In this document: piece by piece, positions 2,083 through 46,680 of the stretch
How positions within the stretch are numbered: position 1 is the first letter of the stretch
How the letters are laid out: every line of letters starts with the position of its first letter
Source: Paraspadella gotoi
Lineage: Eukaryota > Animalia > Chaetognatha
Reading direction: 5' to 3'
DNA length: 64,000 bases
Assembly (NCBI GenBank): GCA_051294375.1
Contig: CM119264.1
Coordinates: forward strand, 11,259,832 to 11,323,831
Notes under the pieces: model-generated
Database searches by the model: none
The model's input: only the letters and a program-made list of their open reading frames with translations
What the model was told of the DNA's origin: nothing
Position numbers and translations under genes: made by a program

Positions 2083-2496
2083 CTGCGTGAGAGGACGGCG
2101 AGAGGGAGGGGCAGAGAGAGAGAGAGAGAGAGAGAAACGGATCTATTGTATTGATAAACTAACTTCAACTGCAATTTAAAAAAAAACTGAGTTTGGACAA
2201 ATTTTTCGACTTAGCCTAAGCTCTTGTCCAGACAGCAACCTTTCAGGTTTTTATCATTCCAGAGATGGTATATTTCCATTTTCTTTTTCCTCCTATAAAA
2301 CGAACCGTGCTAAGTTTAAACGCTTCTTTAATGAATAGCGGGTTCGTTCGATCGTTTATTTTTTGTTTTGTTTTTCTTGTTTTTTCGATAATTAGTTGGA
2401 TTATTCGTTCTTATATTCGTTTTTTTTTTGTACTTCTAACGTTCATTCGTTTTTTTTTTGTTCGTTCGTTCTTTCCCTCTCCCCTCCCTCCCGCAG

Positions 2497-9880
<7,384 letters not shown>

Positions 9881-11007: not shown

Positions 11008-14000
11008 CTGGGGGGTAGGGGTAGTGAAGGGCGGAGAGGGTTGTAGGAAAAGGGGAAAGAAAAACAGAAGTTATATATAAGTATTAAATCTTTAAATTAC
11101 CTTAAATGTTTCTAATTGAATGAAAAGTTAGCGTGCTTTAAATTCCAAGCTGCTTATATTGTAAGTGTTTAGCTAACATGAAAACAAAAAAAAACACGTT
11201 TTCATGATCCGATTTGCAATAATATAATCGCCTTTTCTGATAAGATTTATTGGGTTAGCATTCCGAAATGAACCCATAAGCTATGGCAATCAATGATTGT
11301 TTACACTCTGTCACGAGTGTAATTGATTGTTAATCGAATATCAAGCGAGCGTCAAAAGCTTTTTGTTGGTGCCGACCAAAGAAAAAAAAATCATTGGGGG
11401 GAAGAAAAATCGATACAGTACCTTTCTCATTCAATCACTCACATCACACTTTTCCTCTCTATCCGTATGTTCGGGACTCAGGGTAGGGAGGGCACGAAAA
11501 GAAGAATGGGGTAAGGAGAGATGAAAGGTAGAAAAGGGGAAAGAGGAAGGTTAAAGCAAAATAGTTGAGAGGGGAGAGGAAAAGTAAGCAATCGAGGAAG
11601 AAAGAGGGAGTAAAGAAAAAAAGCGGAGATGTTAGAGAAGAAAAACCAACCAAAGAAGAGAAGAAAGACAAAAGAAAGAAGGGAAAGAAGAAAAATAAGA
11701 AAAAAAGTAGGGGTAGGATCGGGGAGGGAGAGGGGAAAAAAAAATTTGAGTTCGCAGGTGCGTAAAGCCGTCGCGAGGGCGGAGCGAGGCGGGGCAGAGC
11801 GAATGTCACCTTTCACACCTTTCAGAATTTCAAAAGGCGGAAACGTGCTAAGCTTTCCCGAAAGGGGGAAAAGCGGGGGAGGGGCCTCTGAATCAAGGAG
11901 GTGGGAAATGGTGGGTGCGTGGGGGTGGAATCTGAATGGAGTGAAGAGTGGAGGTGTGAGAAAAGCCTGTAGTAGGTTTCGCAACGGGAAACCATAGACG
12001 CGGGGAAAGAAACCGGAACTGAGGCGACAACCCGGATTCGTTTCCGGAATTTTTTTTTTCCCTTTCGCTCGGAGAAACACGAAAAGTGAAGGATGACGTT
12101 GGTTTTTTATGTCGGTGAATTTTTTTTTCTTTTTCCGCTGTCGGATTAACCTATCGATCGAACAACTTTCGATATTTCACTCCGACGTAGTCACTACGCA
12201 TCGTTGCATCCCAATGGTGAGTGTCCTCCTGTTATGAACTTTCTTTACCCTTTATCCCAACCGTCGTCTTTCCATTTAAAACGACCTTTCAACTTCAACC
12301 TTAGTCGGTACTCTTAACCTTTCACCTTAACTCACACTTCAGCGTTACTTTAATTATGCATGTAAATTGTAGAATTGTGGAATTTGGGGATAAGGCGCTA
12401 CGTGGGCTGAAGACTTCTGGAACGGGTCCGGTGCTCGATGGTTTTCTTGGCCCTCAAGGTCTTACGGCCGTCCTAATTCTTCTTTTAGCGTGCGTGGGGA
12501 TCGATCTCAGTGCCTAATGGTCATAAGATGATGACTTAACTCAATGAGCTACCGGTTTCAATGGTTATTGTTTGAACCTTGCAATGCCCGACTACATGCA
12601 TCTCTGCCTCAGTCTTGACCCTTCATCTCTAGTTCAGTTTCGACCCTTCATCGTGACCATTTCCATTAAACCTTCCTTTTGAGTTTGACCCTTCATCTCA
12701 ACCAGGTTCTCAACCTCGTCTTGACCCTCCGTCGTTGCTTCGGACTCGGAAGTTGGCGAAGATGGTTTTTAACCTCGGCATTCGACCTTTCGATTTCCCA
12801 TTTTCCGACCACTCATTTTTCATCGTCTCGCATCTGAGATCAATCCGACACTGAGTTGACCCTGAGACCTCGTTCCCGAGATCCCGAGACCTTGCGAACC
12901 TCGGATGATAACAACTCGATATAACTGGTGATCGAAAAAACACGGTTCAGCAGGGAATCTTCCCGCTTTGCATCTATTTTAGCCACTTGTTAGCCAATAC
13001 ACCGCTATTTCTTTTCCATTTAAAAAAAAAAAATAATGAAACGATGTAAATAAAATTTGGCAGTAGACTATAGCAATACTTTAAAGTTAGAATGTCAAAA
13101 CAGAATTGGGAAAAAGGGATAACCGTATATTAGCGTTGATGACACTTCATTTCTGACTCATGCTTACGATTTGGAATTAACATAATGATAATGAAATTAA
13201 ACATATAGAAGAGTAAGCAAAAAAATTGTTTTACTTTTCTATAAAAAATTGTTTACAATTACTTCAAAAAATGACATTTTAATGATAAATCCTAAAAATA
13301 TTCTTTTTTTAATTGTGTTAAAATGACAAAATGTAAATAATGGTTTTGTGGCGAATCCTAAATTCGCCTCCCGTATAGCTTGGTGAAACTCAGCTCGTCC
13401 CATTGACTTGGACAGCTAAGTACTTGTTCACGAACCGTGAGTTCCGGGTTCAATCCCCTACCGGTCACGCTGGTTAAAGTGTGATGGTGTCATCATAAAC
13501 ACGCCAGTGACATGAGGTGGTCACTGCAGGTCCAAAGCCTTGAGCGCCAGCTGTCGGGAGATTCTTCACACCCCAGGCATCACACATGTCCTCCCCTTTT
13601 GCCATAGATTCAATAAAATTGTAGGAAATGGACCAGAAGATGGATCTGATAGACCAAATGGTTTGCCTATCTTGGTTTTTCCATCTTTTCTCTTTTCTCC
13701 TTCGACAGAAAGAAAAGAAATTGGTTGTGAAAAAGCTTTGAAAATAACTTAGGGTAAGTTATCACTAATCTGCTTGTTCGTTTCTGGTGAAAGATTGTTT
13801 TTCCATATATGTTTTATGTCTCTGAATCTCTGTAAAATCCAGCCATCCAATACGGTATTTTTTGGTATGAAAAAAGTGGCTACTTTTGTGAAATTTAAAA
13901 GATAATTAAAATTTCTGTAATACTTAATCCTTGTAATCGAGTGTAGGCTAAAGATCACGCATTCAGACCCATATCTTCTTACATTCCTATTTAAATAATA

Positions 14001-21260: not shown

Positions 21261-24200
21261 CGCAAAAACCCTCTCTTCTCGAGTCTTTTTTTTTGTTTCC
21301 TTCCCCGCCGTGCCGCCAGTCGTTTCGAATTTCGACCGCGGGAGTCGAGAAGATGCTTTATCCTCGTAAAGTCGTAACGCTTTCAAGTTTAGAGCTTAAT
21401 GTTCTACTATATAGCACGCCTTACTTAGTATTCGAAGAGTGCTACTTTTTTTTATAGAACTTACATATTTTTCGGTTTCGTTAAAGTAGATTAAAATGAA
21501 AAAAATTGATCTTAAAAATTTTTAAATTTGAAATGAAATATCAGCGATACTAATTTAAATTGCGAAGAACGTAATAAATACTTTATTATTTAAAATAAAA
21601 TTCAAAAGGATATCCGCTCGTTGACAGTGGCCACCCCATGGAAAAGTGAGTATGTGCCTTAGCTTATTTCAGTGGACCCCGAGAGAAACGAAAATCCATC
21701 GAAGCTGCTTAGCTGCGCTGCGGTTTGGTGCTGAGTTCCCAGCTTTCGCCGCAGAAATCTACAGCTGCTGTTCATTACCGATAGTCGTCACTGAGGTTAT
21801 TCGCTACCACGAGTTCCCTAGGGCCACCCAATCTTCAAGCCCCTCACCCAAACCGCGATTCCTTTCCCTCACCTTGAGCGCTTCGTGAATATAGATGGCG
21901 GTGAAGACGGCTGCGTAGGCCGAGAGCGAGGCGTGGAGGGAGGGAAAGCTCAGCCTGGCCTCGCGGTACCACCAAGAGTTGTCGGGTTGGCAGGACAACA
22001 ACGAGTCGGCCCAACCTGCCTGAGAATGGAATCGTTTTCGTTCACCTGCGGGAAAGAGTCGGGCGTGGCAGAAGGGGGGGGGCGGGGGCGGGCGGGGGAG
22101 CGGGGCAGGGGAATTTGTAAGGCGGGGGAAAATTTTAAGTTGCAAATAGTCGTCGGGTGGGAGATTTGTCACTTTAGATCGTCGATTTGAGAGTCGGTCG
22201 ATTTAGTTTGATAAATCGATTTGGAGCAGAGGAAACCATTTCGAATAAGTTGTACTAGTCTGCTTAAAAGGGCTTATTATTTCATTTTGACCGTCTGAGT
22301 AATGGTTTACTAAAATTAAAAGCAGCGCTTCGCGTCTCCTTATTCTTATTTTCGTTCCATGATAATTCCCGCAATGCCGCAGTGGAGAATTGGCTGATCA
22401 AGAAACGTACTTGTTATCGTATGACGACTGGCGCGCCACTGGTGTGAAGATATGGCCCCCCCTTTCCCCTTATTTTTTACAAGCTCGCGCTTCTCTCTCG
22501 GCGATCGAAAAAAGAAGCCGAGTGGCGCCGGGTGGCGCCGAGTCGCCGCGAGAGGGATTTCTCTTGTTTACCGCTTAATTTATTCATTCGAAATTCTCCC
22601 TAAAGACTTGAGACTCAACACGAAGCCGAAGGTTTGACAAACAGTTTTTTTGGGTTTTTTTAGTTTATATTGAAAACAATTGATTTTTAATAAAGATTGG
22701 AACTGTTTTAGCTAGCTCGTGTTCTCCTAAAGACGATTCATTGACCTAGGAGCTGAGTTGGAAGTATGACGTATTTATATAATTATATATATATATAATG
22801 AATCAGAGGACAGTCACAGTCCGTCAAATTCTCATAATGATTGACTGTAAACACAGCATCTAATTTAATAAAAAAAAAATGGCGGGCCCACTCACTCGAC
22901 CATTCAAACAACTGTGTCCTCTTTGTCCTCTGCGTTGAAAACAGTTTTGCAAATTCATGGCACAATTTACTACGCAATTAGTCGAACGATGTGGTAAATT
23001 AAACATAGCGAAAACGATGGCGCAGATTTAAAAAAAAAAACGAAAGAAACCAGGTAATTAAAGCCCTTCCCCTTGCCCTTCCCTTCCCCTTCCCTTCCCT
23101 TCCCTTACCCCGCCGCGCCGAAGCGATCGAAGAGGAACGACCTTTTTTTAATCGCGAAACCCAGATTAATAAAAAGCTCATGAAAGATGGATTGAGCCCG
23201 GCGCCCGATCTATCAAACTCCTCCTTAAAAAAAAAACCACCTGTGGGGAGAAGAAGAAATGGAGGTGAGGAAGGAAAGAAACGAAGAATTAAGAAGGAAA
23301 GAAACGAGGAAAAAGGAAAAAAAAAGGAAATAATGAAGGCGGAAAAAGAGAGGAAAAAAAGATGAGAGAAGAAATGAAGACAAAAATAACAGTGATTAAG
23401 AAAAACTGGGACTGAAGCCTCGAGAAAGGCGCGTTTAAAGGTCATTACATGAAAAGGGGGAAAAAGGGAATTTTGCCCACAGTTCAGAGGAGAAAAAGAA
23501 AAGATGAAAAGAAAATTATCAGTTAAAAAAATAAGGAGATATTTCGAGAAAGAAAGGCAGTTAAGGCAAAGGGGGAGGAGAGCACTTGAGGTGGGAAAAA
23601 CGCTGCGAGGGAAAAGGAAAAGAAATAAAGAAAAAAGGAAAACGAAAGGAGATTTGAAAGGAAGAAGGCAAAAATTCGCTTGGGGAAAATATGTACAAAC
23701 GATAAGCAATGGGTAAAGGAGAAAATAATGAAGGGGAAAAACGCCCCGAGATGAGATGAAAAGAAAAAGAACATACATGAGGAAACACGCTTTCAAATCT
23801 ATCGAGCAAGAAAAAAATAGACAAATGAACGCATAATGAGAAACGAGCGCTCAAGGCAAAAACGGAAAAGAGAAAGAAAGAAAGAACAATTCCAAAAAAA
23901 AAAAAAAAAAAACAGAGAAAAAAATGATTAGAGAGAAAAAGAAAAGTAAGACATATTCCATCGATCTTACTCTTCTCATATTTAAAGGGAGGAACAGAAC
24001 GGGAAAATAGAGAAAAAATAAAATGGTAGGAAACGGAAAAAAAAAAATGTGATAGAAGAAGTAAAAAGAAACAAACAAAGTTAAAGCTTGCCGATAATAG
24101 AAAAGAAAGATAGAAAAACAACAACAAACAACGAAACAAAAGTAAACCTAGACGAAGAAGAAAAGGAAAAGAAAAAAAAAAGAAAGAAAAAGACGAAACG

Positions 24201-25498
24201 ATCAAATGTTTAAACGGAAGGAAAAAGAAAAAAGAGTAAAAAAAAAATGAGGTGGAAAAACTCTCGCTTTTCCGAGGAGAGACAAACCTGATAAGGCAAG
24301 GTCGCCTCGATTCCTTGGTTCACTCAATAATTCATTAATACATTAATTAACTAATTCATTCATTCATTCATTCATTTTGTGATTAATTAATGAATTCATT
24401 CTTTCGGTGAATTTTTTTCATTTATTCCCTTATTCATTAAATTATTTTCATTCAACCTAATTCATTATTTAATTCTGTCAGGCGACTAAAGTCGACTAAA
24501 GTAAAGAGAAACAAACAGAAACAAAGAGACAAAGAAAATGGAAAAAGGAAAAACGCGAAGAATAAAAGAAGTACAAATGCATAAATCGAGATTCACATTC
24601 TTCAGTTGGAGACGAAGGTTTATTCGTTCTGCGTCGCGACTTTGGGAGACGAAAGAATTTGTCAAAGTGAAAGAAAATGAAAGGAATGATAACAATCTAA
24701 AGATAAGGTGACTCGTCAAAGAGACAAACAAACAAACAAACCAGGCGACAGTCGGCTAGCGCACAGTCCGTGCGTTCCTGGTTCAATCCCGCGTAACTCC
24801 GGCCTCCCTCTTAGTTAGCAAAGCGTGATGGTTCTGGGGTTTTCTTTTTTCCTTCTTTTTTTCTCTATTCTATTATGTTTTCGTTTGCTCCGACTTAGTC
24901 TATATTTGTTGATTATTTTCGCACCGAATCAACCTTGTTGTATTCGAATAAAATCGAATGTATTAATTATAAGTATGAAGCTCCCCCAGCGCTTGATAGG
25001 TGATCCGCGCCGTTGACATACGATTCCAATTTAAAAAAATTGCAATGAAAAAATTAAAACGTGACATAAATTCGTCTTTTAAAACCGGAACGGACGCCAT
25101 CTAGATTTTTTCCCCCAAGAACCAACAATCGCCTCCTTTACTTTCTTCAATATTTTGACCAGAAACGAAACTTGTTTACTTTTCCCCGTCCCCATGGAAA
25201 CGGGGTTTGTTTTCGACGACGCCCGACCGGAAAATTGGCTTGGAGAGTTGTTCGAAAATGGCGAGAGGATCGTTTTGGACGAAGGATCGGGTTACATCCG
25301 GGGCCAGTCGATTTAGCAGCGAGGAGAATGGCAAAAGAAAGGGAGAAGAGAGAAAGAGGGATAGAGACAAAGATAGAAAGGCTTAAGACTCAATCGCTAG
25401 TATCAAAAGACTTTGATCCCTATTTTTGACCCTGGCCTCGCTCGCTCTTATTCTTTCCCGTTGTTCCTCTTTTTAACTTGATCCCTCTTTCTTCAAAT

Positions 25499-25540
<42 letters not shown>

Positions 25541-25583
25541 TCCCCGCTCTCTCGTCTCCTCTCTCTTTTCTTCTCTCTCTCTT

Positions 25584-25627
<44 letters not shown>

Positions 25628-25653
25628 CTCTCTCTCTTCTTTCTCTTCTCTCT

Positions 25654-25692
<39 letters not shown>

Positions 25693-26650
25693 ATCTCTCT
25701 CTCTCTCTCTCTCCCGCCACGAAACTCATTGGACCAGATGCAGGAAACGAAAAGAAGGGCGACTCAGGAGATCAACTTCTCTCCGATTAGATTTAAATAT
25801 TCGACCGGAGGTTTAATGGGCACATATAGTTTTCGCCTTCATTTCCTCGCTCTCTCCCTTTCTCTCTTCCCGTTCGTGAGAAGAGGGGGGGGGTTGAGGG
25901 GAGTGGGGGGGGGTAGGATGGTGAGAGAGGTTGGGGATCACGGGTAGTGGGGTTAGGGTCACGAATTTCGAGGTGGGCAAACGGACGGAGGTACTAAGTG
26001 GTGATTTGAGATCCGAATAAGATTTTGTCGTTGTTGATGAAAGTCGGGAAATGGCGCGAGTGGGAGAGATTGCGGTGTGACGAGTGCTTTTTTAAAAAAA
26101 TTCCAAAGTTTGAAAATTCTCAAAAATTTTAACCGATAATCGATCCTGAGTTTGTATCACAATTTTTTTCGCTTAGAGTCGTTTTGAGATCGAACACGAA
26201 TACGAATCGTCAGCTTTTTTTTAGTGGGGGTGTAGAAAACGGGGGGGGGGTTGTTTTAGCCTTCGTCACACCGCAATCTCTCCCACTCGCGCCATTTCCG
26301 ACTTTCATCAACAACGACAAAATCTTATTCGGATCTCAAATCACCACTTAGTACCTCCGTCCGTTTGCCCACCTCGAAATTCGTGACCCTAACCCACCGT
26401 GATCCCCAACCTCTCTCACCATCCTACCCCCCCCCATCCCCTCAACCCCCCCCTCTTCTCGCAACGGAGAGAGAGAAGAGAGAAGGGAGAGAGCGAGGAA
26501 ATGAAGGCGAAAACTATGATGCCCATTAACCTCCGGTTCGAATATTTAAATTCTAATCGGAGAGAAGTTGATCTCCTGAGTCGCCCTTCTTTTTCGCCCT
26601 GCATCTGGTCCAATGAGTTTCGTGGCGGGAGAGAGAGAGAGAGAGAGATG

Positions 26651-26701
<51 letters not shown>

Positions 26702-26728
26702 CGAGAGAGAGAGAAAGAAGAGAGAGAT

Positions 26729-26759
<31 letters not shown>

Positions 26760-26761
26760 AG

Positions 26762-26810
<49 letters not shown>

Positions 26811-29800
26811 GAGAGGAGAGAGCAGAGAACGAAGAGAGAGAGGAGAGAGAGAGAGAGAGGTAATTTGAAGAAAGAGGGATCAAGTTAAAAAGAGGAACAA
26901 CGGAAAGAATAAGAGCGAGCGAGGCCAGGGTCAAAAATAGGGATCAAAAGTCTTTTTGATACTAGCGATTGAGTCTTAAGCCTTTCTATCTTTGTCTCTA
27001 TCCCTCTTTCTCTTTCTCCCTTTCTTTTGCCATTCTCCTCGCTGCTAAATCGACTGGCCCCGGATGTAACCCGATCCTTCGTCCAAAACGATCCTCTCGC
27101 CATTTTCGAACAACTCTCCAAGCCAATTTCCGGTCGGGCGTTCGTCGAAAAACAAACCCCGTTTCCATGGGGACGGGGAAAAGTAAACAAGTTTCGTTTC
27201 TGCGTCAAAATATTGAAGAAAGTAAAAGGAGCGATTGTTGGTTCTTGGGGAAAAAATCTAGATGGCGTCCGTTCCGGTTTTAAAAGACGAATTTATGTCA
27301 CGTTTTAATTTTTTCATTGCAATTTTTTTTAAATTGGAATCGTATGTCAACGGCGCGGATCACCTATCAAGCGCTTGGGGAGCTTCATACTTATAATTAA
27401 TACATTCGATTTTATCGAATACAACAAGGTTGATTCGCGTGCGAAAATAATCAACAATATAGACTAAGTCGGAGGCAAACGAAAACATAATAGAATAGAG
27501 AAAAAAAGAAGGAAAAAGAAAACCCCAGAACCATCACGCTTTGCTAACTAAGAGGGAGGCCGGAGTTACGCGGGATTGAACAGGAACGCACGGACTGTGC
27601 GCTAGCCGACTGCTCGCCTGGTTTGTTTTGTTTGTTTGTCTCTTTGACGAGTCACCTTATCTTTTAGATTGTTATCATTCCTTTCATTTTCTTTCACTTT
27701 GACAAATTCTTTGTCTCCCAAAGTCGCGACGCAGAACGAATAAACCTTCGTCTCCAAACTGAAGAATGTGAATCTCGATTTATGCATTTGTACTTCTTTT
27801 ATTCTTCGCGTTTTTCCTTTTTCCATTTTCTTTGTCTCTTTGTTTCTGTTTGTTCTCTTTACTTTAGTCGACTTTAGTCGCCTGACAGAAATTAAATAAT
27901 GAATTAGGTTGAATGAAAAAATAATTTAATGAATAAGGGAATAAAATGAAAAAAATTCACCGAAAGAATGAATTCATTAATTAATCACAAAATGAATGAA
28001 TGAATGAATGAATTAGTTAATTAATGTATTAATGAATTATTGAGTGAACCAAGGAATCGAGGCGACCTTGCCTTATCAGGTTTGTCTCTCCTCGGAAAAG
28101 CGAGAGTTTTTCCACCTCATTTTTTTTACTCTTTTTTCTTTTTCCTTCCGTTTTAAACATTTGATCGTTTCGTCTTTTTCTTTCTTTTTTTTTCTTTTCC
28201 TTTTCTTCTTCGTCTAGTTTACTTTTGTTTCGTTGTTGTTGTTGTTTTTTCTNNNNNNNNNNNNNNNNNNNNNNNNNAAAAAAAAAAAAAAAAAAAAGAA
28301 ATTCGGAACGTTTAAAGCCGGAAATTTAAAACTGATCCAGAATCCAAAAAAGAAATTGGCTTATAATTGGTTGTTAAAACAACAAATTGACAAAATTTAA
28401 AAAATTCAAGCACTGGAATCATAATGCTAAGTTATGAGCGATTTTTTGTCTCATTTTCCAGCAAAAACGAAATCGAATTTTAGCCGTCTCTGTCTTTTTT
28501 CTTTTGTCCTCTCTTTCCTCTCTTTATCCTATCTATTTTCTCCTCTCTCTCCTCTCGGGTCGGCCATTTAATGAAATTCAATTCCGCTCATTTAAAAGAA
28601 CCACCCACAACTCACAATATTCCTCCACGCCGATTTTTCTTTTTTTCTTTCTCAAGAGTTGAATTGAGAAGAATATTTTCTGAGCTCGTGTGTAAAATCA
28701 AATTAGGTTGCACTCTCTCTAGAATTGCGAGAAAATATTTGAGAAAGGAATCCTTTAATCCAAGTTGAAAACTATAGCATTGCGTTTTCAGATGCTCTCA
28801 CGTATAAAGGTTGATTGGGGTATCGTATCGATCGAGTTTAAATAATATTTTTTCTATTTTTTCATGTTATAAAAACCTCACGAATCTCCATCTATAATTT
28901 GACGCAAATCAGTTTTCATCTAACCTTGCAGATGGAGAGAAAGTAAGGTCTGGGCATTCCCGTCATGATTTTGATGAGGTCGGTGAGAATGAGGGTCATG
29001 AAAATTCCTGAAACGCAAAAAGGGGGCGTGGAGGGAAAAAAATAAATAACATTTTTCCGACCTTTCTCCATCACGGACTCCGTGATGTTCGCGCGTCGCA
29101 TCCAAATGTGACGTGATTCACGTGAGACGTATTATTAATCACAACTCACCCAGAGAAAAATTGGCGAAGAATCGAACTAATCTTTTCATGAAGAGAGGAG
29201 TTTGACATCGACGGCAGCAGGGTTCCCCCCTGAAAATTAAAAATGAAAATTTGATTTATTAAGGACAAAAAAGACTTTCATCGCTCTTTGCTGGGAATTT
29301 CGCGGATTTTCATTGCGAGTTGAAACGTGAATACTGATAGTGGGACAATCGAATTGGAGCCATTAATTTTTCTGAAACCACGGGCATTATCTATAATTAA
29401 TTATATGGTTTATATTAATAACATCAATTATATTTAAAACGAGAGATTGCTTTGGGATAAGGTGTGACAAAGGTGTTGGCATCTGTGCTCAGATGGGATA
29501 GCGGGACGGGAATCGTCATCTTGTAACGTCAAATAATGTAAATCTTGTGAAGTAAAATACATAAATTCTGCAATTTGTCGAAAAATTAATCACCGGGCGA
29601 GAAACTTTCAAATCCTTCAAATTCAAAACTTTCAAATCTTCGACGATTAAAAGGATTTTCCCTTCGCGTTGCTAAACTCGCCGACTTTTTATTGAACAGT
29701 CAACTCTCAACTTTCGCTTCAGCGCCCGGAGGTCTCGACTTCTCTAGAGCGCACGTCGTACGCTCGTACGTCACGACGATGAGACAACCCAGCCCCCGCC

Positions 29801-30604
29801 GCTCCTACTACCCGACTCTATTGCTGCTGCCCTCGCCGTGAATCGAGGTCCGATCGCGCGCGAGGTTGTTTTGTCCCTTGTTTACAACTTGGGACAAGGC
29901 GAGAATCACGCTCCATGAGCGGGAGATGAATTTACGAGATCGAACTCGGGATGGGGAGTCGCTTTTTTAAGGGGACGGTGAGGAAACGGAAATTATAAAA
30001 GTTTGCGTGAGATTAAATTAAGATAAAAAGTTATGTGAGAGAAAAAAGCAAAAAAAAAACAATAATATTGTTTGTCAATACATAATTAATAGGTTCGATT
30101 GTTAAAACAGTTAAAATATCAAAAAAACTATCACATAGATAACTAATCCACAATAGCCATTCGAGGCAAGATAGCTTATTTATTGAATAAATGGATAATT
30201 TTTAGGATGGTTGAACTAATATCAGACTCCTCGGGCTCATGTATGACGAGTTATCAGAATAAAATCTCAAAAACAAAAAAAATTGGATGTTGTATATTCA
30301 AAAGCAACTGATCAACTTTCAAATGGGCCGTTGTAAATTTAAAAAAACCTGCCGCAAGCCGGTAACTCACCAGGCTCATGCCTGACGCACATCCAGGATC
30401 AAATCCCAAATCAGGCGCGGGAAAATTTGGATGCGAACCGCGAGCAGGAGAGATCCCGAGATGAAAACTCTCATCACCCAAAATCCCTTCTCACATTTTA
30501 AAATCCCCCGAGCCTCTTTCTATTTTTCTTTCTTCTTCTTTCTTCTTTTTTCTTTTTTTTTTGTTTTCGACGACCGACTTAGTCGAAATGAAGGTGGATA
30601 AATG

Positions 30605-36200: not shown

Positions 36201-39200
36201 TACTCTTTTTTTCCAACTTCCTTTTATTTAAGCTTTTCATTTAACTCGATTTAAATATTATTTTATACATTTTAAAGTACGAATTAATCGCAATAAGAAA
36301 GTTTACTCTTAAGATAATTGAGATTTCGGGTTACAAGGAATTTAATTCATTTAGAATTAGATGTGAAGCCAAAAAATTAAGTTGGTTATCTAACTCACTG
36401 TATTATCTACTTAGACTTTGAAAACCATAAAAAGAGTTTTTTATAATTGATAATAACATATAGTCACCAAAAACTAGTGTTTCATTCTAGGCTAAAATCT
36501 GTCACCGAAAATAAATTTTCATAATAACAATAGATATCCAAAATCCCCATTAATCTTCGATATTTTTGAACAGTTACTCTTTCCCAAATTTCAAAGTACA
36601 ACCCCCGCGTCTTTGGCCAAACCGTAAAACACGGATGTTTCGTCTTCGATCAGAATGCTGGGATCTTCGAATTCGATCACTTCTCCCTGATGCATCACGA
36701 TCACTTTATCATAATCGAGGATGGTGTTTATGCGGTGGGCAATTGTCAACACCGTCGCGCCGCCAAACTCTTTCGCGATCGTCTTCTGGATTAATTCGTC
36801 CGTCCTCACATCGACGGCGGCTGTGGCTTCGTCAAGAACGAGGATCTCAGAATCCCTCAGGAGCGCCCGCGCGAGACAGACGAGTTGACGCTGCCCAACG
36901 GAGAGGTTCTCGCCCGACTCTGCGCATTGGTGACTGAGACCTTCGGGCAGGCTGGAGATAAAGTCTTTCAGATGCGATAGGGTCAATACTCTCCAAAGTT
37001 CTTCGTCTGCATGGAGATTAAAGGGGTCGAGGTTCATCCTTAACGACCCGGAAAATATTATTGGATCCTGGGGAATGATGGAGATTTTCGAACGGAGATC
37101 GTGCAGGCCTAAATTTTGGGTGTCCTCTCCATCGATCACAATGCTGCCCGATGCCGCTTCAAGGATACGAAATAAAGCCAGAGTGAGGCTAGACTTTCCA
37201 GCACCAGTTCTTCCCACGACACCGATGCGTTGTCCACCAGTGATGCGAAGGTTGATGTTTTTCAATACCAATTCCAAATTTTCTCTATATTTAACATTGT
37301 AGTTTTTGAAGAGTATGTCGCCTTGATCTGGCCAGATGTTTTTCAGGGAATCAGAGCGATCATTTCTCCAGGGAGCTTCGACGGGTAGGGTCGAGTATTC
37401 TCGCACCCTTTCAACGGCAACAAATTCGTTTTCCATTTCCGAAGACTTACGAACAACGTGTGTCATAATGTGCACGAAAGTTACGGCGTAGGCTATTGTA
37501 AGCCCGGCATCACTGACCGTTGTTGACGTGTCTAAAATTGTAGAGAGTGTGCTAAAGAGAATTATGGGCGAAGCGAGTTGTTCAATTACAAACGTCATCC
37601 ACTCATCCACTGTCCACATGAGGAAAGCCGATTTGAGATTTTCTTTCACGCGTCGACGAATCTCTTCTTTGAAATGGTTCTGCTTGCCAAAGGCTCTGAT
37701 AACCACGAGTCCTTGCAACGTTTCAGCAAACAGCGAAAAAATCGGAGACCTCGTGATTGACTCAATTCGACGAAGTTGACGAGTTGAAGAAATGGAGAAT
37801 CGCTGGACAATGAAGAATAACCCAAGGAAGAAGGGAGCTGGGACCAGGAACCAGGGCTTCACTATGGCAATGACGATCGGAGTTCCGATCAAGAAAATGA
37901 CAGTGTTGTAAAAGAGGAAGAGAATTTCGGGAATTTTAACATCGATACCATCCATGTCGACTGAGAATCGATTCATGATTCTACCCAAAGGGGTAATGTC
38001 AAAAAAAGTCAAGGGGCAAGACAGCACACGCTTCACCAAATATTCGTGAAGGCGACGAGAAGCCCCGATGGAACTGTATATGTGAAATCTTATAGCGATG
38101 AATATTAAAACTGATGCTCCGAGTCCCACGCCGACGTAGATGCTTAGATTATGAGAATTCACTACAGTTAAAACAGTTGAATTTTTTCGATTTTGAATCT
38201 CATCAGTCCACTTGGAGAGCTGAAAGTTTGAGGTCATCTCCAGGACTCGTGCCACGATGAAAGAGAGAAACATCATTATGGTAACAAACTTTCCCGAGGA
38301 TGCCAAATAGGCAATGAACATTTGAAAACTCACGAAGCCGTGCTGCCTTTCCTCATCTTGAATTAGTTTCCCATCCCCCTCAGTAGTTTTTTCTTCGAGG
38401 CTTGGCTGATTTGACTGATTAATATCCAATTGATCTTTTGCTGTATATTTTTTTTCATTTAGTTGATTTCGAAAATTTTTTACATATTGAGAAAAATATC
38501 CGTTACCACCGATTAGATCTGCATACTTTCCTTTTTCTAATATTCGTCCATCTTCAAGGAATAAGATATTATCCATTGCAGGGAGGTAGTTTAGCACATT
38601 AGTGACAATGATTCTGCTCTTTGTTCCCAGTAGTCCTTCAAAAGATAGAACTTTGTCATAAATGTGTTTTCCAACATGCGCATCTACGGCGGAAAGTGGG
38701 TCGTCCAAGAGATAAAGATCTGCATCAGCATATATAGCTCTCGCAAGGGAAACCCTAAGTTTTTGTCCTCCAGAGAGATTGATGCCCCTGTCGCCAATCT
38801 CTGTGTCATCACTAGCAGGTAAAGTTTTCAGATCAAGTTGCAGGGCGCAAGCCGTGATGACCGAATGATACTTTTTAGCGTCCAATGGCTTTCCAAACAA
38901 TATGTTATCTTTGATTGTTCCATTTTGTATCCAAGGTTGTTGAGAAACGTATGACACCTTTTTTAAGATTCTTACAATACCCTGTACTCTGTGGATTTCC
39001 CCCAAAATGGCTTTGAGTAAAGCAGATTTTCCTGATCCAACTCTTCCGACTATAGCAATCATTTGACCGTTTTTTACTTTAAAATTTAAGCTTTTAAGGA
39101 ATGGCTCATCATTTTTATTCCATGCAAAAGATGCATCTGTGACGTTTACGGCGATGTCTTTGGCATGTTGATGGATTGCTGAATCAAACTGAAATTCCTC

Positions 39201-42200
39201 ACTCACTAAAAATGCGTCAATGCGTTTTCCTGACACAAACATATGAATACTGCTTATGAGACTCATTGGTAATACCCACAATGGTACTCTTATGTTGTGA
39301 AGGACAGAAAGGGTTACAAATGCTCTTTTCGCTGTCAGAATACGGTCATCCAACAGAACAAACACTGAAAACAAGACTATGATTAAAAAAATTGGAGTAG
39401 CTACAATAAAAAATTTTATAAAACCATGCCACAAAAGTTGCACCCGATACATTTTGACTTCACTATCCCGAATTTGATTGATTTGATCAATGAAAGAACC
39501 TTCCCAAGCGTAAAACTTGAGAATTTTGATGCTGTTAAGGACTTCACTAATTTTTTTTACTCTTTCATCCTTGAATTCCATGTGCTTCTCCTGCAATGTT
39601 TTGGTTTTGTTGCCAATGAGAATGCAGATGGGAAGAAAAACCACAAAGACAGCAAGACCAGCAAAAACCGAAACCCCAACCTGAGAATAAATGATCCAAG
39701 TGCCGAGTAAAATGTGAAGGGGAGTGAAAATCCCAATTATAAAGAGTTCTAGACCATCAAAAAACTTTCTTGCGTCAACGCTCATGAGATTAACGATTTC
39801 TCCAACTGGCTTTGCCTGAGATGCGGCCGAGGTTAAGCGAAGGCTTTTGTCAAATATGGCTATGGTGAGAATGCTTTGAACCTTTAGACTTAAAATGCGA
39901 TTCAATAACCAAAATTGATTAATGCAGTAGGGCAGGGTGAAAGCGAGAACAAAGATGAGAGCGACGTAGAAAGCACCTTTCCAGTACCATTCACTTTCCC
40001 TCTCTTTGCTGTCAAAACCCTCTGTAGGTCTGATTGACAAGTGGTTCAACAACCAGCCAAGGATGAGTGGTTTTCCAAGTTCGTTAAGTATAAAAATGAT
40101 TCTTAAAAAGCTAAGAAAAAAAAGAGTTTGAATATGGCGCCAGAGCAAAATTCTATTCACTGAGGAAATATTTTTACAATTATCAAATTTAACCTCTGAA
40201 TCATTTTTTTTATTATCTCCTGCTGCAGAGGGATCTTTATGAGAGTTTTTGAAATATTCTTCATAGAATTTAGTCATAATCTGCTCTATCTGCAACTCCT
40301 TTGGCAATTCCTCTAAATCTTGATTATCCAGAGGCTTCTTGAAGCCTCTCCACAAAAGCGGTGTCAGCCAAAAGAAGGTTAGCCTGGACAACGCGCTGGC
40401 CGAATCAAAAGACGATCCGGTAAGATTCCAGCTTTGGCACAAATTTACAGACAAAGAAACGAAGGACATTATTGTCATCAAGGAGACCGTCACGAGGATT
40501 TTCTTCTCCAGAACCTCTTCGAGAAAAGGAACGCTTCCAAGATTGGCCCGCGCGTAGTGCTGCAGCCGGAGAAGTTGACCGAGAAAGTGTAGAAGCCAGA
40601 AAGAGAGGACAACTGCGGATGCGGAGCTGGAGTATCTGGAGAGTCTCGTCAAGACGGCGACTATGATCAGAGAGACGACGAGCATAGAGCGATTAACGAG
40701 TGGCGCCGCAGATGCGTAGAAGATGGATGAAGCTGTTGATGACGCCGATGATGAAGCTCCTTCGACGACGAGCGCCAACTCGGCCAACGTTATCGCCGTC
40801 GCTAGGCCGATAACCATCTGCTTGAGCCAGTAATGACATCGCGAGTTGCCGTCTTGCTTCATTGAATATTTCGAGATTTTCGCAATGAGTTTTTTAAGAA
40901 ATAAGGGGAGGGCGAAAAGGAGAAATATGGAGGGAACCCAGGTGGGGATCGTGTCCAAGAAGCAGAGGGTCAAGTCAGGGCTGGAAGTGTACCACGAAAC
41001 ACGCTGATCCCAGAAGGGAGAGGCTCCGCAAAAATCCCCAAAGTAGATCGTCGCGTTTTCCAGGGAGGCCATCGTTTTAATTATTTTTTAAAAAGATGTT
41101 TAGTTTACTATATTTACAGGTTTAGTTTCGCATAAGTAACTTATTGATTGTGTTATTTTAATATTTTAAAATATCGTTAAAAACTTTTTCGTATCTTCCG
41201 AGGGTAAAATCGTTTTATGTGTGAAAGTAATTTTAAAAGATCCTGTTTGTTACCCAATCATTTTTAAACGCGAATTCAGAATGAAAAAAGTGGTCAGGTA
41301 AGTTTTTCTCATATTGATTCTGCAACCCTATTTAAAATTACACTGAAAAAGTTGGACTTTCGAAGCTGTAACAACAACAGATAGAAAAGAATTTCAGAAA
41401 GCACGCGATATAAAACCCTCCGAAAAGGGTTTCTGCTATGAGCAATTGAGCAATTGAGCATAACAGGACTTAATCAGAAACAATGACATCTGAATCTTAT
41501 TTTCGATTGAAAGCCAGTATGCGAGCGAAAGTGTATGTCAGCTTGCGTGTCTGTGTGTCTGAGAGACAATAAAACAGGGAAAGAATCAGACCGAGATTGT
41601 CATTGTTTCTGATTAAGTCCTGTTATGCTCAATTGCTCAATTGTAATTTTTACATTCGTTATGCTTACAAATGTCTGTAATTTCTCGGCGAGAAATTACA
41701 GACATTTGTAAACATAACGAAAGTAAAAATTACAAATGGTGTGGTCTTTTTGTACAATTTAAACATTCTTTGAAATATTTTCCACTTCATTGATAGGGAA
41801 GCCAGGTACTCTGGGAGTGAATAAACGAGACTGTGACTGTGTGAGAGAGTCTTGATTGAAAGCTTGCAGGGACCTGCTATGTCATTAACTTGTAAGAGTT
41901 AAACCACCCAAGCATGTCCAAAGTCATAGGTAAGATAGCTTATTTATTAAAAGAATGGATAATTTTTATATTGGTTGTACCAATTTCATATTATAGTATT
42001 TGCCATCGTCTTCATCAAATTCATTATATAGAATAGTAATCATGTAACAAGGCCAGAGTTAAGGTCCTGTCCGTCTGAAGTGGGAAGCCCTCTCTATTGA
42101 GGAAGGTTCTGGGTCGAAGTTTTTGGCGTCGTCTTCGTCGTCGTCGTCGTCGTCGTTCTCGTCGTTGTCGTCGATGAAAAAGAAATTCGAAGTCGAGAAA

Positions 42201-44165: not shown

Positions 44166-46680
44166 CAAGAAAATAATTATTTCTAATGCAATGAAGGTCT
44201 CGTCTCGCCGCAACGACTCTCTGTGCGTGCCAGGTCAATTTTTCTCCATAAAATGTTTTTTCTTTCATCTCGTCATAAAAAAAAAAAAAAATTCATGGCG
44301 AATATGATCCGGTTGTACGTGTACCATGATCTACGTACATATTTAGTTCAAGACTTGATATGACATTTCTCCGACAAAACCAAAGTCCGAATTAACTTCT
44401 TCTTTCTGAAATTTCTTTCCTTCTTACTTAAATCGATGAAGGGGAAAGAAAACCTCCCAGTGGAAAAACAAACTCATAACGCGGAAGACGAAAGATTGGG
44501 GGAAGGCAGAAAGCAAAACAAAAAACAAAAAATCCAATTACGAGTCAACGAAAAAAAAAATAGTGCGATTAGATTTAAGAAGGAAAATAGTTTATTTTCT
44601 TCGCCTCATTTCTTATTCATGGGGATTTTTTTCTCTTTGAGTTTCTCCTCCTTTTTTCTTTCGTCTTTTGTTGGTTTTTGTTTGTGACTTCTGTTTGTGG
44701 CCAAAATACTTGGAAAGACCGACTCCCGACTACCAAATCTTTGCACCGACACCCGAAAGCAGACGCCCGACGCTCGACAACAGACGCCCGTTGCCCGACG
44801 AGTTCTTTTTCTCGTTCCATCATCGTCGCCATCTTCGTTGTCAACGTCAAGGTCGGAGAATGCGCGTCGACGTCGTCGCAATCATCATCGAGGGGAGAAA
44901 GTATTTGTCTAGCTCTATCGTCGTCGTCATCGTCGTCTCTACCGTCTCTATCGTCGTCTTCATCGTCGTCTTCATCGTCGTCTCTATCGTCGTCTCCATC
45001 GTCTCTAACGTCGTCTCTATCGTCTTCATCATCGTCTCTATTGTCTTCAAAGTCGTCTCTTTCGACGTCTTTATTGTCATCTCTATCGTCTCTATCATGG
45101 TCTCTATCGTCGTCTCTATCGTCTTCATCATTGTCTCTATTGTCTTCATCGTTGTCTCTATCTTTGTCTCTACCGTCTCTATCGTCATCTTCATCGTCGT
45201 CTCTATCGTCTTCATCATTGTCTCTATTGTCTTCTGCATCGTCTCTAACGTCGTCTCTATCGTCTTCATCATCGTCTCTATTGTCTTCAACGTCGTCTCT
45301 ATCGTCGTCTTTATTGTCGTCTCTATCGTCTCTATCATCGTCTCTATCGTCATATCTATCGTCTGTATCGTATTCATCATTGTCTCTATCGTCTTCATCG
45401 TCGTCTCTATCGTCCATATCGTTGTCATCTTTTCCTCGTCAATCACTAAACGGAATCTTCCTTTAAAGTAACTTATAAACGTGATACTGTGGCAGCAAGA
45501 CTTAAAGCTGCCTCACTGCTGTCCGTCCTCAGCCTCGTCTCAATGGCTGAGCAGGCTAAATCATCTCATTCCATCCGTGCGTCCCGGGTTCAATCCCTGG
45601 GTATCCCGGTTCTGGCTTAAATGTGACGGTGCCGGTATAAACATGCCAGTGACAGGAGGCGGTCACTGAGGGTCCGCAGCCCCTACGCCAGTTGGTGAGA
45701 TACCCCGCGCCCCGGGTATCACAGGCTATCCTCCCGTTGCCATAATACCAGGCAGGAGGATGTTATATCATCTCCGTATTGATCCATTAGTTAGACCGTC
45801 GTTCACAATCGTCGTCGACTTCGTCGTCGTCGTCGTTCGCTCTGGGGATGTTCGTCGTCATTTTTCAACCTGGTTTCTCGGTGTTTCGACTGACCAAACG
45901 TCCGATTCGTCGTCGTCGTCATCGTTGTGATTGTTGTCTCCGTCGTCGTTTTCGTCGTCGTCAATCGTCGTCTTCGTCGGTTGCTTGATTCTCACATATA
46001 CAGAATACAGATACTGATCCCATGACCCGAAGTCATTCCGCAAATTTGAACAGACGAAACAAGAGAATCCTAATTGTGACGAACTCGACGAATGCGGATC
46101 AAATCGATGCCAAAAGCAAGAAAACACTTGCGGTGTCCTTAAGCCCGAAACAAAGAAACAAAGAAACTTAAATTTTAACAAAACGGCGTAAAAACAATGC
46201 ATAAGTTCCGGGTGGTGCCATCAGCGAGCGACTACGGAGAACAATAACGCCCGAGTCCTCACCTGATCGGAAAGAGGGCGGCGTTCTCCTTGAGCCAGAA
46301 GCGAAGGAAAAGCGCGAACGTCACCAGCGCCGTCAAGATGAGACCGGAATTCGTCACCAAAATTCCCTGCGGGGGACGAGACGAAAAAAAAAAAAGATTA
46401 GCGGGCCGGAGTAGATCCTGTCGGTTGGGGGCTCAAACTCGATGTCGCGGAAACAAAAGCCACCTGCGCTGATTTTTTTTTTTTGGTTTTACCTTCGTTA
46501 GCCTTCTTCACCTTTTTCTCTCTTTTTCTTTTTTTTTTTTGGTTTCTTTGCGAAAAAACAGGTGGCAGTTTTTTTTTAATGTGTTAAGATTGACTACTGC
46601 CTACTGGCTAGACGAAGATGCTCTTGCGGTGAGAAGTTGTATTTTATTTCTTTTTTAGTTTTTTTAGATTAATATAACAG

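What the first reader, a model, noticed from the sequence alone, without database searches (positions are those of the whole stretch)
45484..45748. Possible new mobile element class: integrase-type ends, tRNA-type Pol III promoter and twister ribozyme in 257 bp
Seen: TGTGGCA...TGCCATA ends, exact 4-bp TSD (ATAC), about 50 nt of conserved sequence with a covarying hairpin upstream of the tRNA-like part, A/B boxes, twister, 3' hairpin, and no poly-A or simple-repeat tail. Three copies in 64 kb, in two subfamilies. An ordinary SINE starts at its tRNA head and has a tail and longer TSD, so this does not fit. Known: TG...CA-like ends with 4-bp TSDs are typical of Gypsy-type integrase. Plant LTR retrozymes carry hammerheads in their LTRs, Cassandra TRIMs carry 5S-derived Pol III promoters, and tRNA-bearing LTRs have also been described. 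Inference: these are solo LTRs of a non-autonomous Pol III-driven twister retrozyme, whose two-LTR parent would be cut LTR-to-LTR into a unit-length, possibly circular, RNA. I do not know a description of this combination but cannot verify novelty.
Basis: partly seen in the sequence, partly recalled or inferred. Interest (0 to 1): 0.9.

Follow-up and report, generated by a model that had tools for sequence, protein, structure and literature searches.

The report
Twister ribozyme inside tRNA-promoter LTR
An abundant 257-base repeat in an animal genome has fixed ends, a tRNA-type promoter motif and a well-formed twister self-cutting RNA fold; it is likely the leftover end-repeat of a small parasitic retrotransposon whose RNA would be cut to unit length, a design I found described only for plants and only with a different ribozyme.

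Summary
Element 45488-45744 has TG...TA ends, an exact ATAC duplication, A/B boxes starting about 57 nt inside the 5' end, no tail, and a twister fold in type-P5 order. All 27 modelled pairs hold in both subfamilies, 4 by compensatory change; Rfam scores are far below cut-off. Public contigs show fixed ends at many loci. The best reading is a solo LTR of a Helenus-like Pol III TRIM carrying a ribozyme, i.e. an animal LTR retrozyme. A two-LTR parent, cleavage and transcription were not shown. Support came from the Helenus paper's own supplement: two gall-wasp families (two LTRs, PBS, PPT, 4-bp TSD) have the same LTR layout with, by eye, a hammerhead where this one has a twister; the paper does not mention it. 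Against: a 72-bp palindromic MITE in the window shares the first 9 bases and a 4-bp TSD, keeping a DNA-transposon reading open. It is a new variant joining two known kinds, not a new class.

The parts
45484..45487 (.). left 4-bp target-site duplication (ATAC)
   Evidence: sequence
45488..45744 (+). 257-bp element, subfamily A; likely solo LTR
   Evidence: contigs leave at 45488 and 45744-45747
45488..45515 (+). 5' terminal hairpin; its first 9 nt match the reverse complement of the 3' end at 7 of 9 positions and equal the first 9 nt of the 72-bp MITE
45544..45555 (+). Pol III type-2 A box match (offset 57)
45583..45601 (+). tRNA T-arm-like stem-loop holding the B box (45587-45597); the commonest variant in run X1 (T45598C, 8% of depth) turns a G-U into G-C
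45612..45691 (+). twister ribozyme fold, type-P5 order: P5 45612-16/45687-91, P2 45621-24/45641-44, L1 3' strand 45625-29, 2-bp P1 45630-37, P3 45647-68, P4 45669-84, T1 45627-29/45674-76, T2 45645-46/45679-80
45638..45639 (+). predicted U^A cleavage site (after offset 151)
   Evidence: alignment to the Rfam consensus UAA; cleavage not tested
45699..45720 (+). 3' hairpin, 7 bp (subfamily A)
45745..45748 (.). right 4-bp target-site duplication (ATAC)
   Evidence: sequence
13347..13606 (+). 260-bp copy, subfamily B; twister core matches the Rfam consensus loop; flanks GTTT/GATT; TTTT at 13597
4205..4472 (+). decayed subfamily A copy (A box deleted, the general-base G changed to A, 28-nt insertion); lies between two OATP-matching stretches, so probably in an intron; 3' end approximate
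9229..9300 (.). separate 72-bp palindromic MITE (31-bp perfect arms, exact 4-bp TSD ATAG) sharing the first 9 nt with subfamily A; context for the rival reading

Best explanation
This 257-bp repeat has fixed ends, a 4-bp target-site duplication, an internal A/B-box motif and a twister fold, and it is likely a solo LTR of a non-autonomous, Gypsy-mobilised, Helenus-like TRIM whose RNA would be cut LTR-to-LTR by the twister (an animal LTR retrozyme). Shown: fixed ends, TSD, repeat nature, box matches, twister pairing kept between two subfamilies 72% alike. Inferred: Pol III starts about 40-50 nt inside the 5' LTR, reads through (subfamily A has no run of four T), the twister cuts after offset 151 in each LTR, and the unit-length RNA has no terminal repeat and is probably closed into a circle. 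A tRNA-primed Gypsy reverse transcriptase copies it, regenerating the 5' part that lies upstream of the promoter, and the integrase inserts it using the short imperfect terminal inverted repeat. Solo LTRs arise by LTR-LTR recombination or as LTR-length cDNA. The two-LTR parent is inferred, not seen.
For: (1) About 50 nt of element lie upstream of the tRNA-like part in both subfamilies (A box at offsets 57 and 58), so an RNA started at its own promoter cannot rebuild the 5' end unless the unit is duplicated, as in an LTR. (2) Fixed ends without tail in 39 and 16+21+16 contigs of run X1; the loose-end consensus ends in ATAT on the left and, for the 45747 group, continues the ATA match with T on the right, a weak hint of an AT-rich 4-bp target preference. 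(3) Animal Helenus make 4-bp TSDs and have TRGCY and GGTTC boxes in LTRs (PMC10886601). (4) Helenus-2_SyJa and -2_SyUm: LTR 277 bp, internal 485/487 bp, TSD 4 bp, PBS shared with Gypsy-32_NVi; their LTRs start TGTGG, then hairpin, A box, B box and, by eye, a type III hammerhead at the place of this twister. (5) Twister pairs kept between subfamilies: 27 of 27, with compensatory changes in P2, P4 (two) and pseudoknot T1, which points to selection on the RNA; a P5-order descriptor hits only these copies (2 strict, 3 relaxed) and 0 strict, 1 relaxed in 597 Mb of shuffled window. (6) Plant LTR retrozymes use this logic, with 4-bp TSDs and solo LTRs (PMC4918200).
Against: No two-LTR copy, PBS or PPT seen: 0 of 3 window copies has one, and none of the 15 joints shown of 34 links the 3' end back to the 5' end. 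Only 1 of 3 copies has an exact TSD. The 3' end is TA, not the CA usual for integrase ends (a few Helenus consensus LTRs also end in TA, by eye). A 72-bp MITE shares the first 9 nt and a 4-bp TSD. Subfamily B has TTTT 6 nt before its end, which could stop Pol III in the first LTR. Rfam scores are about 50 bits below cut-off and no type-P5 model was reported. Subfamily A has C where the Rfam loop consensus has A (45677), and P1 is only 2 bp. Covariation rests on two sequences (23 of 500 shuffles reach it) and the descriptor was written after seeing the element. The Synergus hammerhead was read by eye only.
Confidence: 0.6

Rival explanations
1. Non-autonomous DNA transposon of a Ginger2-like (TGT ends, 4-bp TSD) transposase that captured a tRNA-derived, twister-bearing RNA gene; it moves as DNA and the RNA parts are cargo.
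For: 72-bp MITE at 9229-9300 with the same first 9 nt and an exact 4-bp TSD; the 9-mer occurs 3 times against 0.05 expected (two are the MITE's own arms). Ginger2 has TGTNR termini, 4-bp AT-rich TSDs (PMC2836005). All three copies stand alone.
Against: The element's own inverted repeat is 7 of 9 nt, against 31 bp in the MITE and 50-180 bp in Ginger2; the right end reads TATGG, not TGTNR. DNA-level movement does not explain compensatory changes in the ribozyme, pseudoknot included.
Confidence: 0.14
2. LTR-only retrozyme with no internal region: tandem copies are transcribed by Pol III, cut twister-to-twister into a 257-nt circle, reverse transcribed without a tRNA primer site and inserted as monomers by a borrowed integrase.
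For: Only monomers seen; fixed ends and 4-bp TSD; ribozyme under selection; LTR-length cDNA from circular templates is proposed for plant retrozymes.
Against: No head-to-tail joint among the 15 of 34 joints shown; no known primer; the closest published layout has an internal region.
Confidence: 0.13
3. Short retroposon inserted by target-primed reverse transcription (SINE-like, or the end-repeat of a Penelope-like or RTE element), the twister trimming its RNA.
For: Twisters are known at the 5' end of RTE elements (PMC8501958; PMC7761336); other scan notes report tRNA-headed and twister-bearing Penelope ends in other genomes (unchecked).
Against: Promoter and cleavage site both lie well inside the element (offsets 57 and 151); no tail; both ends fixed; 4-bp TSD, whereas animal non-LTR retrozymes have larger TSDs (PMC7229834).
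Confidence: 0.08
4. Ordinary Helenus-type solo LTR in which the twister-like fold is inactive or incidental.
For: Rfam scores 15-17 bits; one loop position off consensus in subfamily A; 2-bp P1.
Against: All 27 pairs kept with 4 compensatory changes; subfamily B matches the Rfam loop and junction words; frequent variants in run X1 fall in P1 and one junction base, not in the core; twister keeps activity without P1 (PMC5408937 abstract).
Confidence: 0.05

Closest known systems
Helenus (TRIMp3), esp. Helenus-2_SyJa and Helenus-2_SyUm of Synergus gall wasps (Kojima 2024, PMC10886601; parts 1-4 and 6 of 6 of the text and supplement parts 1 and 5-9 of 11 read)
   Same: tRNA-derived A/B boxes inside a 250-280-bp terminal unit, 4-bp TSD in animals, TG start, solo copies; in the two Synergus families the same order of hairpin, boxes, ribozyme motif (by eye) and 3' part.
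   Different: Twister rather than hammerhead; most animal Helenus LTRs read have the tRNA near the 3' end and no ribozyme; the paper describes no ribozyme; no sequence likeness noticed by eye; here the two-LTR parent is not seen.
Plant LTR retrozymes (Cervera, Urbina, de la Pena 2016, PMC4918200; passages read)
   Same: Self-cleaving ribozyme inside a roughly 300-bp LTR, 4-bp TSD, solo LTRs, proposed Gypsy mobilisation.
   Different: Plant, type III hammerhead, no Pol III promoter reported (the 2020 review says retrozymes seem to lack promoters); circles shown there, untested here.
Twister variants of Schistosoma Perere-3 and other RTE elements (PMC8501958, passages read; PMC7761336, passages read)
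   Same: Twister ribozyme in an animal retroelement.
   Different: There it defines the 5' end of an autonomous non-LTR element; here it is central in a non-coding unit with integrase-type ends, in P5 order, behind an A/B-box motif.
Ginger2 DNA transposons (PMC2836005, passages read)
   Same: TGTNR 5' end, 4-bp AT-rich TSD.
   Different: Ginger2 has 50-180-bp inverted repeats; this element has 7 of 9 nt; fits the neighbouring 72-bp MITE better.

Membership tests
Helenus / TRIMp3 | tRNA-derived sequence with box A (TRGCY) and box B (GGTTC) inside the terminal unit | tested here: met
   box A is weaker in subfamily B and deleted in the 4205 copy
Helenus / TRIMp3 | 4-bp TSD (animal families) | tested here: met
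   exact in 1 of 3 copies, 3 of 4 in another, unresolved in the third
Helenus / TRIMp3 | two LTRs around an internal region with PBS and PPT | tested here: inconclusive
   0 of 3 window copies; no such joint among 15 of 34 shown; no genome held
Helenus / TRIMp3 | sequence likeness to a catalogued family (Repbase/Dfam) | not testable with these tools
   consensus file read by eye only; no likeness noticed; Repbase and Dfam not available
Twister ribozyme | stems P1, P2, P4 and pseudoknots T1, T2 in a P1, P3 or P5 permutation | tested here: met
   P1 only 2 bp
Twister ribozyme | conserved L1 and L4 nucleotides (UAA cleavage strand, GA-GG strand, loop ending AAGC) | tested here: inconclusive
   all match the Rfam consensus in subfamily B; subfamily A has C for one loop A (45677)
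Twister ribozyme | Rfam gathering score | tested here: not met
   15.2 and 17.3 bits to twister-P1 against 67.2; that model has the other strand order, and no P5 model hit was listed
Twister ribozyme | self-cleavage at U-A | not testable with these tools
   needs an in vitro assay
Plant LTR retrozymes | hammerhead ribozyme in the LTR | tested here: not met
   the motif is a twister; no hammerhead hit in Rfam
Plant LTR retrozymes | unit-length circular RNA | not testable with these tools
   only assembled contigs were offered
tRNA-derived SINE | element begins at the tRNA head | tested here: not met
   about 50 nt precede the tRNA-like part
tRNA-derived SINE | poly-A or simple-repeat tail | tested here: not met
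Ginger2-type MITE | terminal inverted repeats of tens of bases with TGTNR at both ends | tested here: not met
   7 of 9 nt; right end reads TATGG

The most novel reading that the evidence does not exclude
This family and the Synergus Helenus-2 families are the first members of an unrecognised animal class of Pol III-driven LTR retrozymes: a tRNA promoter starts the RNA, an interchangeable ribozyme (twister here, type III hammerhead in gall wasps) cuts it to unit length in place of a terminator and an R repeat, and Gypsy enzymes copy the circle and insert it.
Probability: 0.45. Interest if true: 0.8.

Novelty: new variant of a known kind. Interest (0 to 1): 0.66.

Why it matters
LTR retrozymes are described from plants with hammerheads, and animal retrozymes are described as non-LTR. 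An animal LTR-type element with a twister behind its own tRNA-type promoter would extend the retrozyme life cycle to animals and to a second ribozyme class. It would give twisters a second defined genomic job besides RTE 5' processing, and show how a Pol III TRIM can define its RNA ends without a terminator. The same layout with a hammerhead in already published consensus sequences suggests convergence and makes the idea testable at once in gall wasps.

Tried and rejected
No whole genome is held, so copy pairs and TSDs could not be tabulated. Pattern scans for further copies: metagenome contigs gave 1 hit, L001, a chance match in a bacterial gene; viral contigs gave 0 and then 11 hits, none with a twister-order core or more than a 21-nt match; genome contigs gave 0. 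No RNA holder is on record among the 17 runs listed; X9 and X10 are only guessed to be RNA and are contigs, so they say nothing about expression. Summed depth over the element in X1 (0.53-0.96 million against about 100-700 on unique flank) is not a copy number, as the tool warns; I use only the junction counts. A second laying of low-coverage runs to look for an internal region gave no result, so that question stays open. Host lineage: the intronless ABCC/MRP1 gene has insect best hits at only 30-39% identity, a second search found nothing and the Atlas gave no lineage; I conclude only 'animal, probably'. MFE folding does not recover the twister (z 0.03), as expected for a double pseudoknot. 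The Rfam RsmY, SNORD39 and sR1 hits (E 2.9-6.8) are chance. The 24767-24790 B-box-like fragment has no twister or element ends and was not counted as a copy. No reverse transcriptase or integrase family was found in the 18 of 65 ORFs scanned. The original twister paper could not be opened (two recalled ids not held); the consensus used is the one Rfam printed.

Full report
Observation. The element spans 45488-45744 (257 bp), starts TGTGGCA, ends TGCCATA and has ATAC on both sides. BLASTN of the window finds two more copies: 4205-~4472 (75% over 275 columns) and 13347-13606 (72% over 178 columns; flanks GTTT and GATT). The first has lost its A box, carries a 28-nt insertion in the ribozyme and has a decayed 3' end. 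A 24-nt B-box-like match at 24767 has no other element feature and is not counted. The host is probably an animal: an intronless ABCC/MRP1 gene at 36591-41087 has insect best hits at 30-39% identity and OATP exon fragments lie at about 2550-2770 and 9480-9570. No genome is held.

Fixed ends and abundance. Of 17 runs listed, 13 hold the stretch or part of it, under four organism labels and one metagenome; 4 of the 17 were laid. In run X1, which may be the source of this DNA, contigs leave the element at 45488 (39 contigs) and at 45744, 45745 and 45747 (16, 21, 16), into unrelated sequence with consensus agreement 0.44-0.48; 16 of 363 loose-end rows were shown. So both ends are fixed at dozens of loci at least and there is no tail. 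The later 3' stops are most simply flank that begins like ATAC; with a left-flank consensus ending in ATAT this hints at an AT-rich 4-bp target preference (inference, weak). Partial matches lie in runs of two other organism labels (X10, 184 nt identical; X11, up to 151 nt with 20 differences), at depth about 5.

Promoter. An A-box match starts at offset 57 (58 in subfamily B) and a B box at offset 100 (101). They match the TRGCY and GGTTC words reported for Helenus, the A box less well in B. ARAGORN finds no tRNA. A T-arm-like stem-loop surrounds the B box, and its commonest variant in X1 strengthens the stem. About 50 nt precede the tRNA-like part and fold into a terminal hairpin in both subfamilies with different stems (z -2.21 and -2.15). 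Subfamily A has no run of four T; B has one at 13597.

Ribozyme. Rfam finds nothing at gathering level in the window and no twister in a 451-nt E-value scan. In narrower scans twister-P1 is the best family for both copies, at 15.2 bits (E 0.56) and 17.3 bits (E 0.4), cut-off 67.2. The printed consensus shows why: its 3' segment (UAAA, P2 strand, GAGG) lies 5' of the cleavage strand here, closed by a P5 stem, which is the type-P5 permutation described in PMC5408937 (abstract and first two parts read). With that structure all 27 pairs form in both subfamilies; 4 change on both sides (P2, T1, two in P4) and 3 on one side; 23 of 500 shuffles reach this and slid controls pair 30-42%. Only two sequences are compared. 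A descriptor in P5 order hits 45622-45684 and 13480-13542 strictly and the 4205 copy when relaxed, with 0 strict and 1 relaxed hits in 597 Mb of shuffled window; it was written after seeing the element, so this overstates significance. Against activity: P1 is 2 bp, and subfamily A has C for a consensus loop A at 45677. The review's abstract says twister keeps activity without P1. Among the 40 of 42 variant rows shown, the frequent ones in the ribozyme fall in P1 and at one junction base. The residue roles (general-base G, T1 register) are partly recalled from the structure papers and agree with the env22 pairs quoted.

Mechanism. Promoter and predicted cut (after 45638, offset 151) both lie inside a unit whose two ends are fixed. 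An RNA made from one copy cannot contain the first 40-50 nt, and after cleavage lacks the first 151. The unit can therefore be copied through RNA only if it is duplicated in the parent, as LTRs are. Cutting at the same site in two LTRs gives a unit-length RNA without terminal repeat, which is the plant retrozyme cycle (PMC4918200, passages read). The TG start, 7-of-9 terminal inverted repeat and 4-bp TSD fit a Gypsy integrase. These steps are inference. No parent was seen: 0 of 3 window copies has a PBS or PPT beside it, and none of the 15 joints shown of 34 links 45744 back to 45488; a polymorphic internal region would be broken in such contigs, so this is weak. Scans of three public collections found no true further copy.

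A published layout twin. Helenus (PMC10886601; text parts 1-4 and 6 of 6 read) are TRIMs with tRNA-derived LTRs and, in animals, 4-bp TSDs and Gypsy-type PBS. The text has 'twister' 0 times and 'ribozyme' once, in a reference title. I read parts 1 and 5-9 of its supplement; parts 2-4 were only word-searched. In most animal LTRs read the tRNA lies near the 3' end, often followed by a T run, and I saw no twister. Two families differ: Helenus-2_SyJa and -2_SyUm (LTR 277, internal 485 and 487, TSD 4, tRNA-Trp PBS like Gypsy-32_NVi). Their LTRs start TGTGG and carry a 5' hairpin, A box, B box and then, by eye, a type III hammerhead: GUC triplet, 7-bp helix I, CUGAUGA, 4-bp helix II, GAAAC, helix III and complementary loops. 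They account for 2 of the 5 'ctgatgag' hits in the file. This reading was not run through any program. It shows that a ribozyme behind a tRNA promoter in a true two-LTR animal element is plausible, and it is the main reason for my 0.6.

Rivals. A 72-bp palindrome at 9229-9300 has 31-bp perfect arms, an exact ATAG duplication and the same first 9 nt as subfamily A. It fits Ginger2 (TGTNR, 4-bp AT-rich TSD; PMC2836005, passages read) and keeps a DNA-transposon reading open (0.14), though the element lacks a real inverted repeat and DNA movement would not conserve a pseudoknot. An LTR-only circle (0.13), a target-primed retroposon (0.08) and an inactive fold (0.05) are less likely for the reasons given in their entries.

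Novelty. Ten full-text searches (listings seen) found no twister in an LTR element and no ribozyme in Helenus. Passages were read in PMC8501958, PMC7761336, PMC5680766, PMC7229834, PMC13570524 and bioRxiv 10.64898/2026.07.22.740005 (its supplements are closed). They place twisters at RTE 5' ends and describe animal retrozymes as lacking LTRs, PBS and PPT. Subscription journals, Repbase Reports and Dfam were not searched, so the family itself may be catalogued. The scan's notes hold nothing on this sequence or genome; related unchecked notes concern other DNA. Verdict: a real feature, a new variant joining Helenus and LTR retrozymes, interest 0.66.

Noticed in passing
PMC10886601 supplement DataS1, Helenus-2_SyJa-LTR and Helenus-2_SyUm-LTR: By eye a complete type III hammerhead with complementary loops lies downstream of the tRNA promoter in these two-LTR gall-wasp TRIMs; the paper does not mention it. 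They would be animal LTR retrozymes.
   Followed up: partly
window 9229-9300: 72-bp MITE with 31-bp perfect arms and exact 4-bp TSD ATAG, sharing its first 9 nt with the element; Ginger2-like ends.
   Followed up: partly
window 36591-41087 (-): Intronless 1492-aa ABCC/MRP1 gene with TMD0, only 30-39% identical to its best hits, while the OATP gene nearby is split into exons; possibly a retrocopy or a lineage-specific expansion.
   Followed up: partly
window 24114-28249: About 2-kb inverted duplication (95.6% identical arms, 180-nt centre), ending at the window's single N (28253); a foldback element or an assembly artefact. It contains the B-box-like fragment at 24767-24790.
   Followed up: no
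window 41638-41738: 101-bp AT-rich palindrome with 50-nt arms, 94% complementary; no TSD seen at these limits.
   Followed up: no
window 30164-30224 and 41928-41988: A further 61-bp dispersed repeat, 84% identical.
   Followed up: no
window 2220-2777, 9428-9877 (+) and 21807-22202 (-): Exon fragments matching OATP and, weakly, PAP2 families.
   Followed up: no
window 45809-45837: Short (TCG)n-type stretch next to the element draws very high depth in all four runs laid; a common microsatellite word, not part of the element.
   Followed up: no
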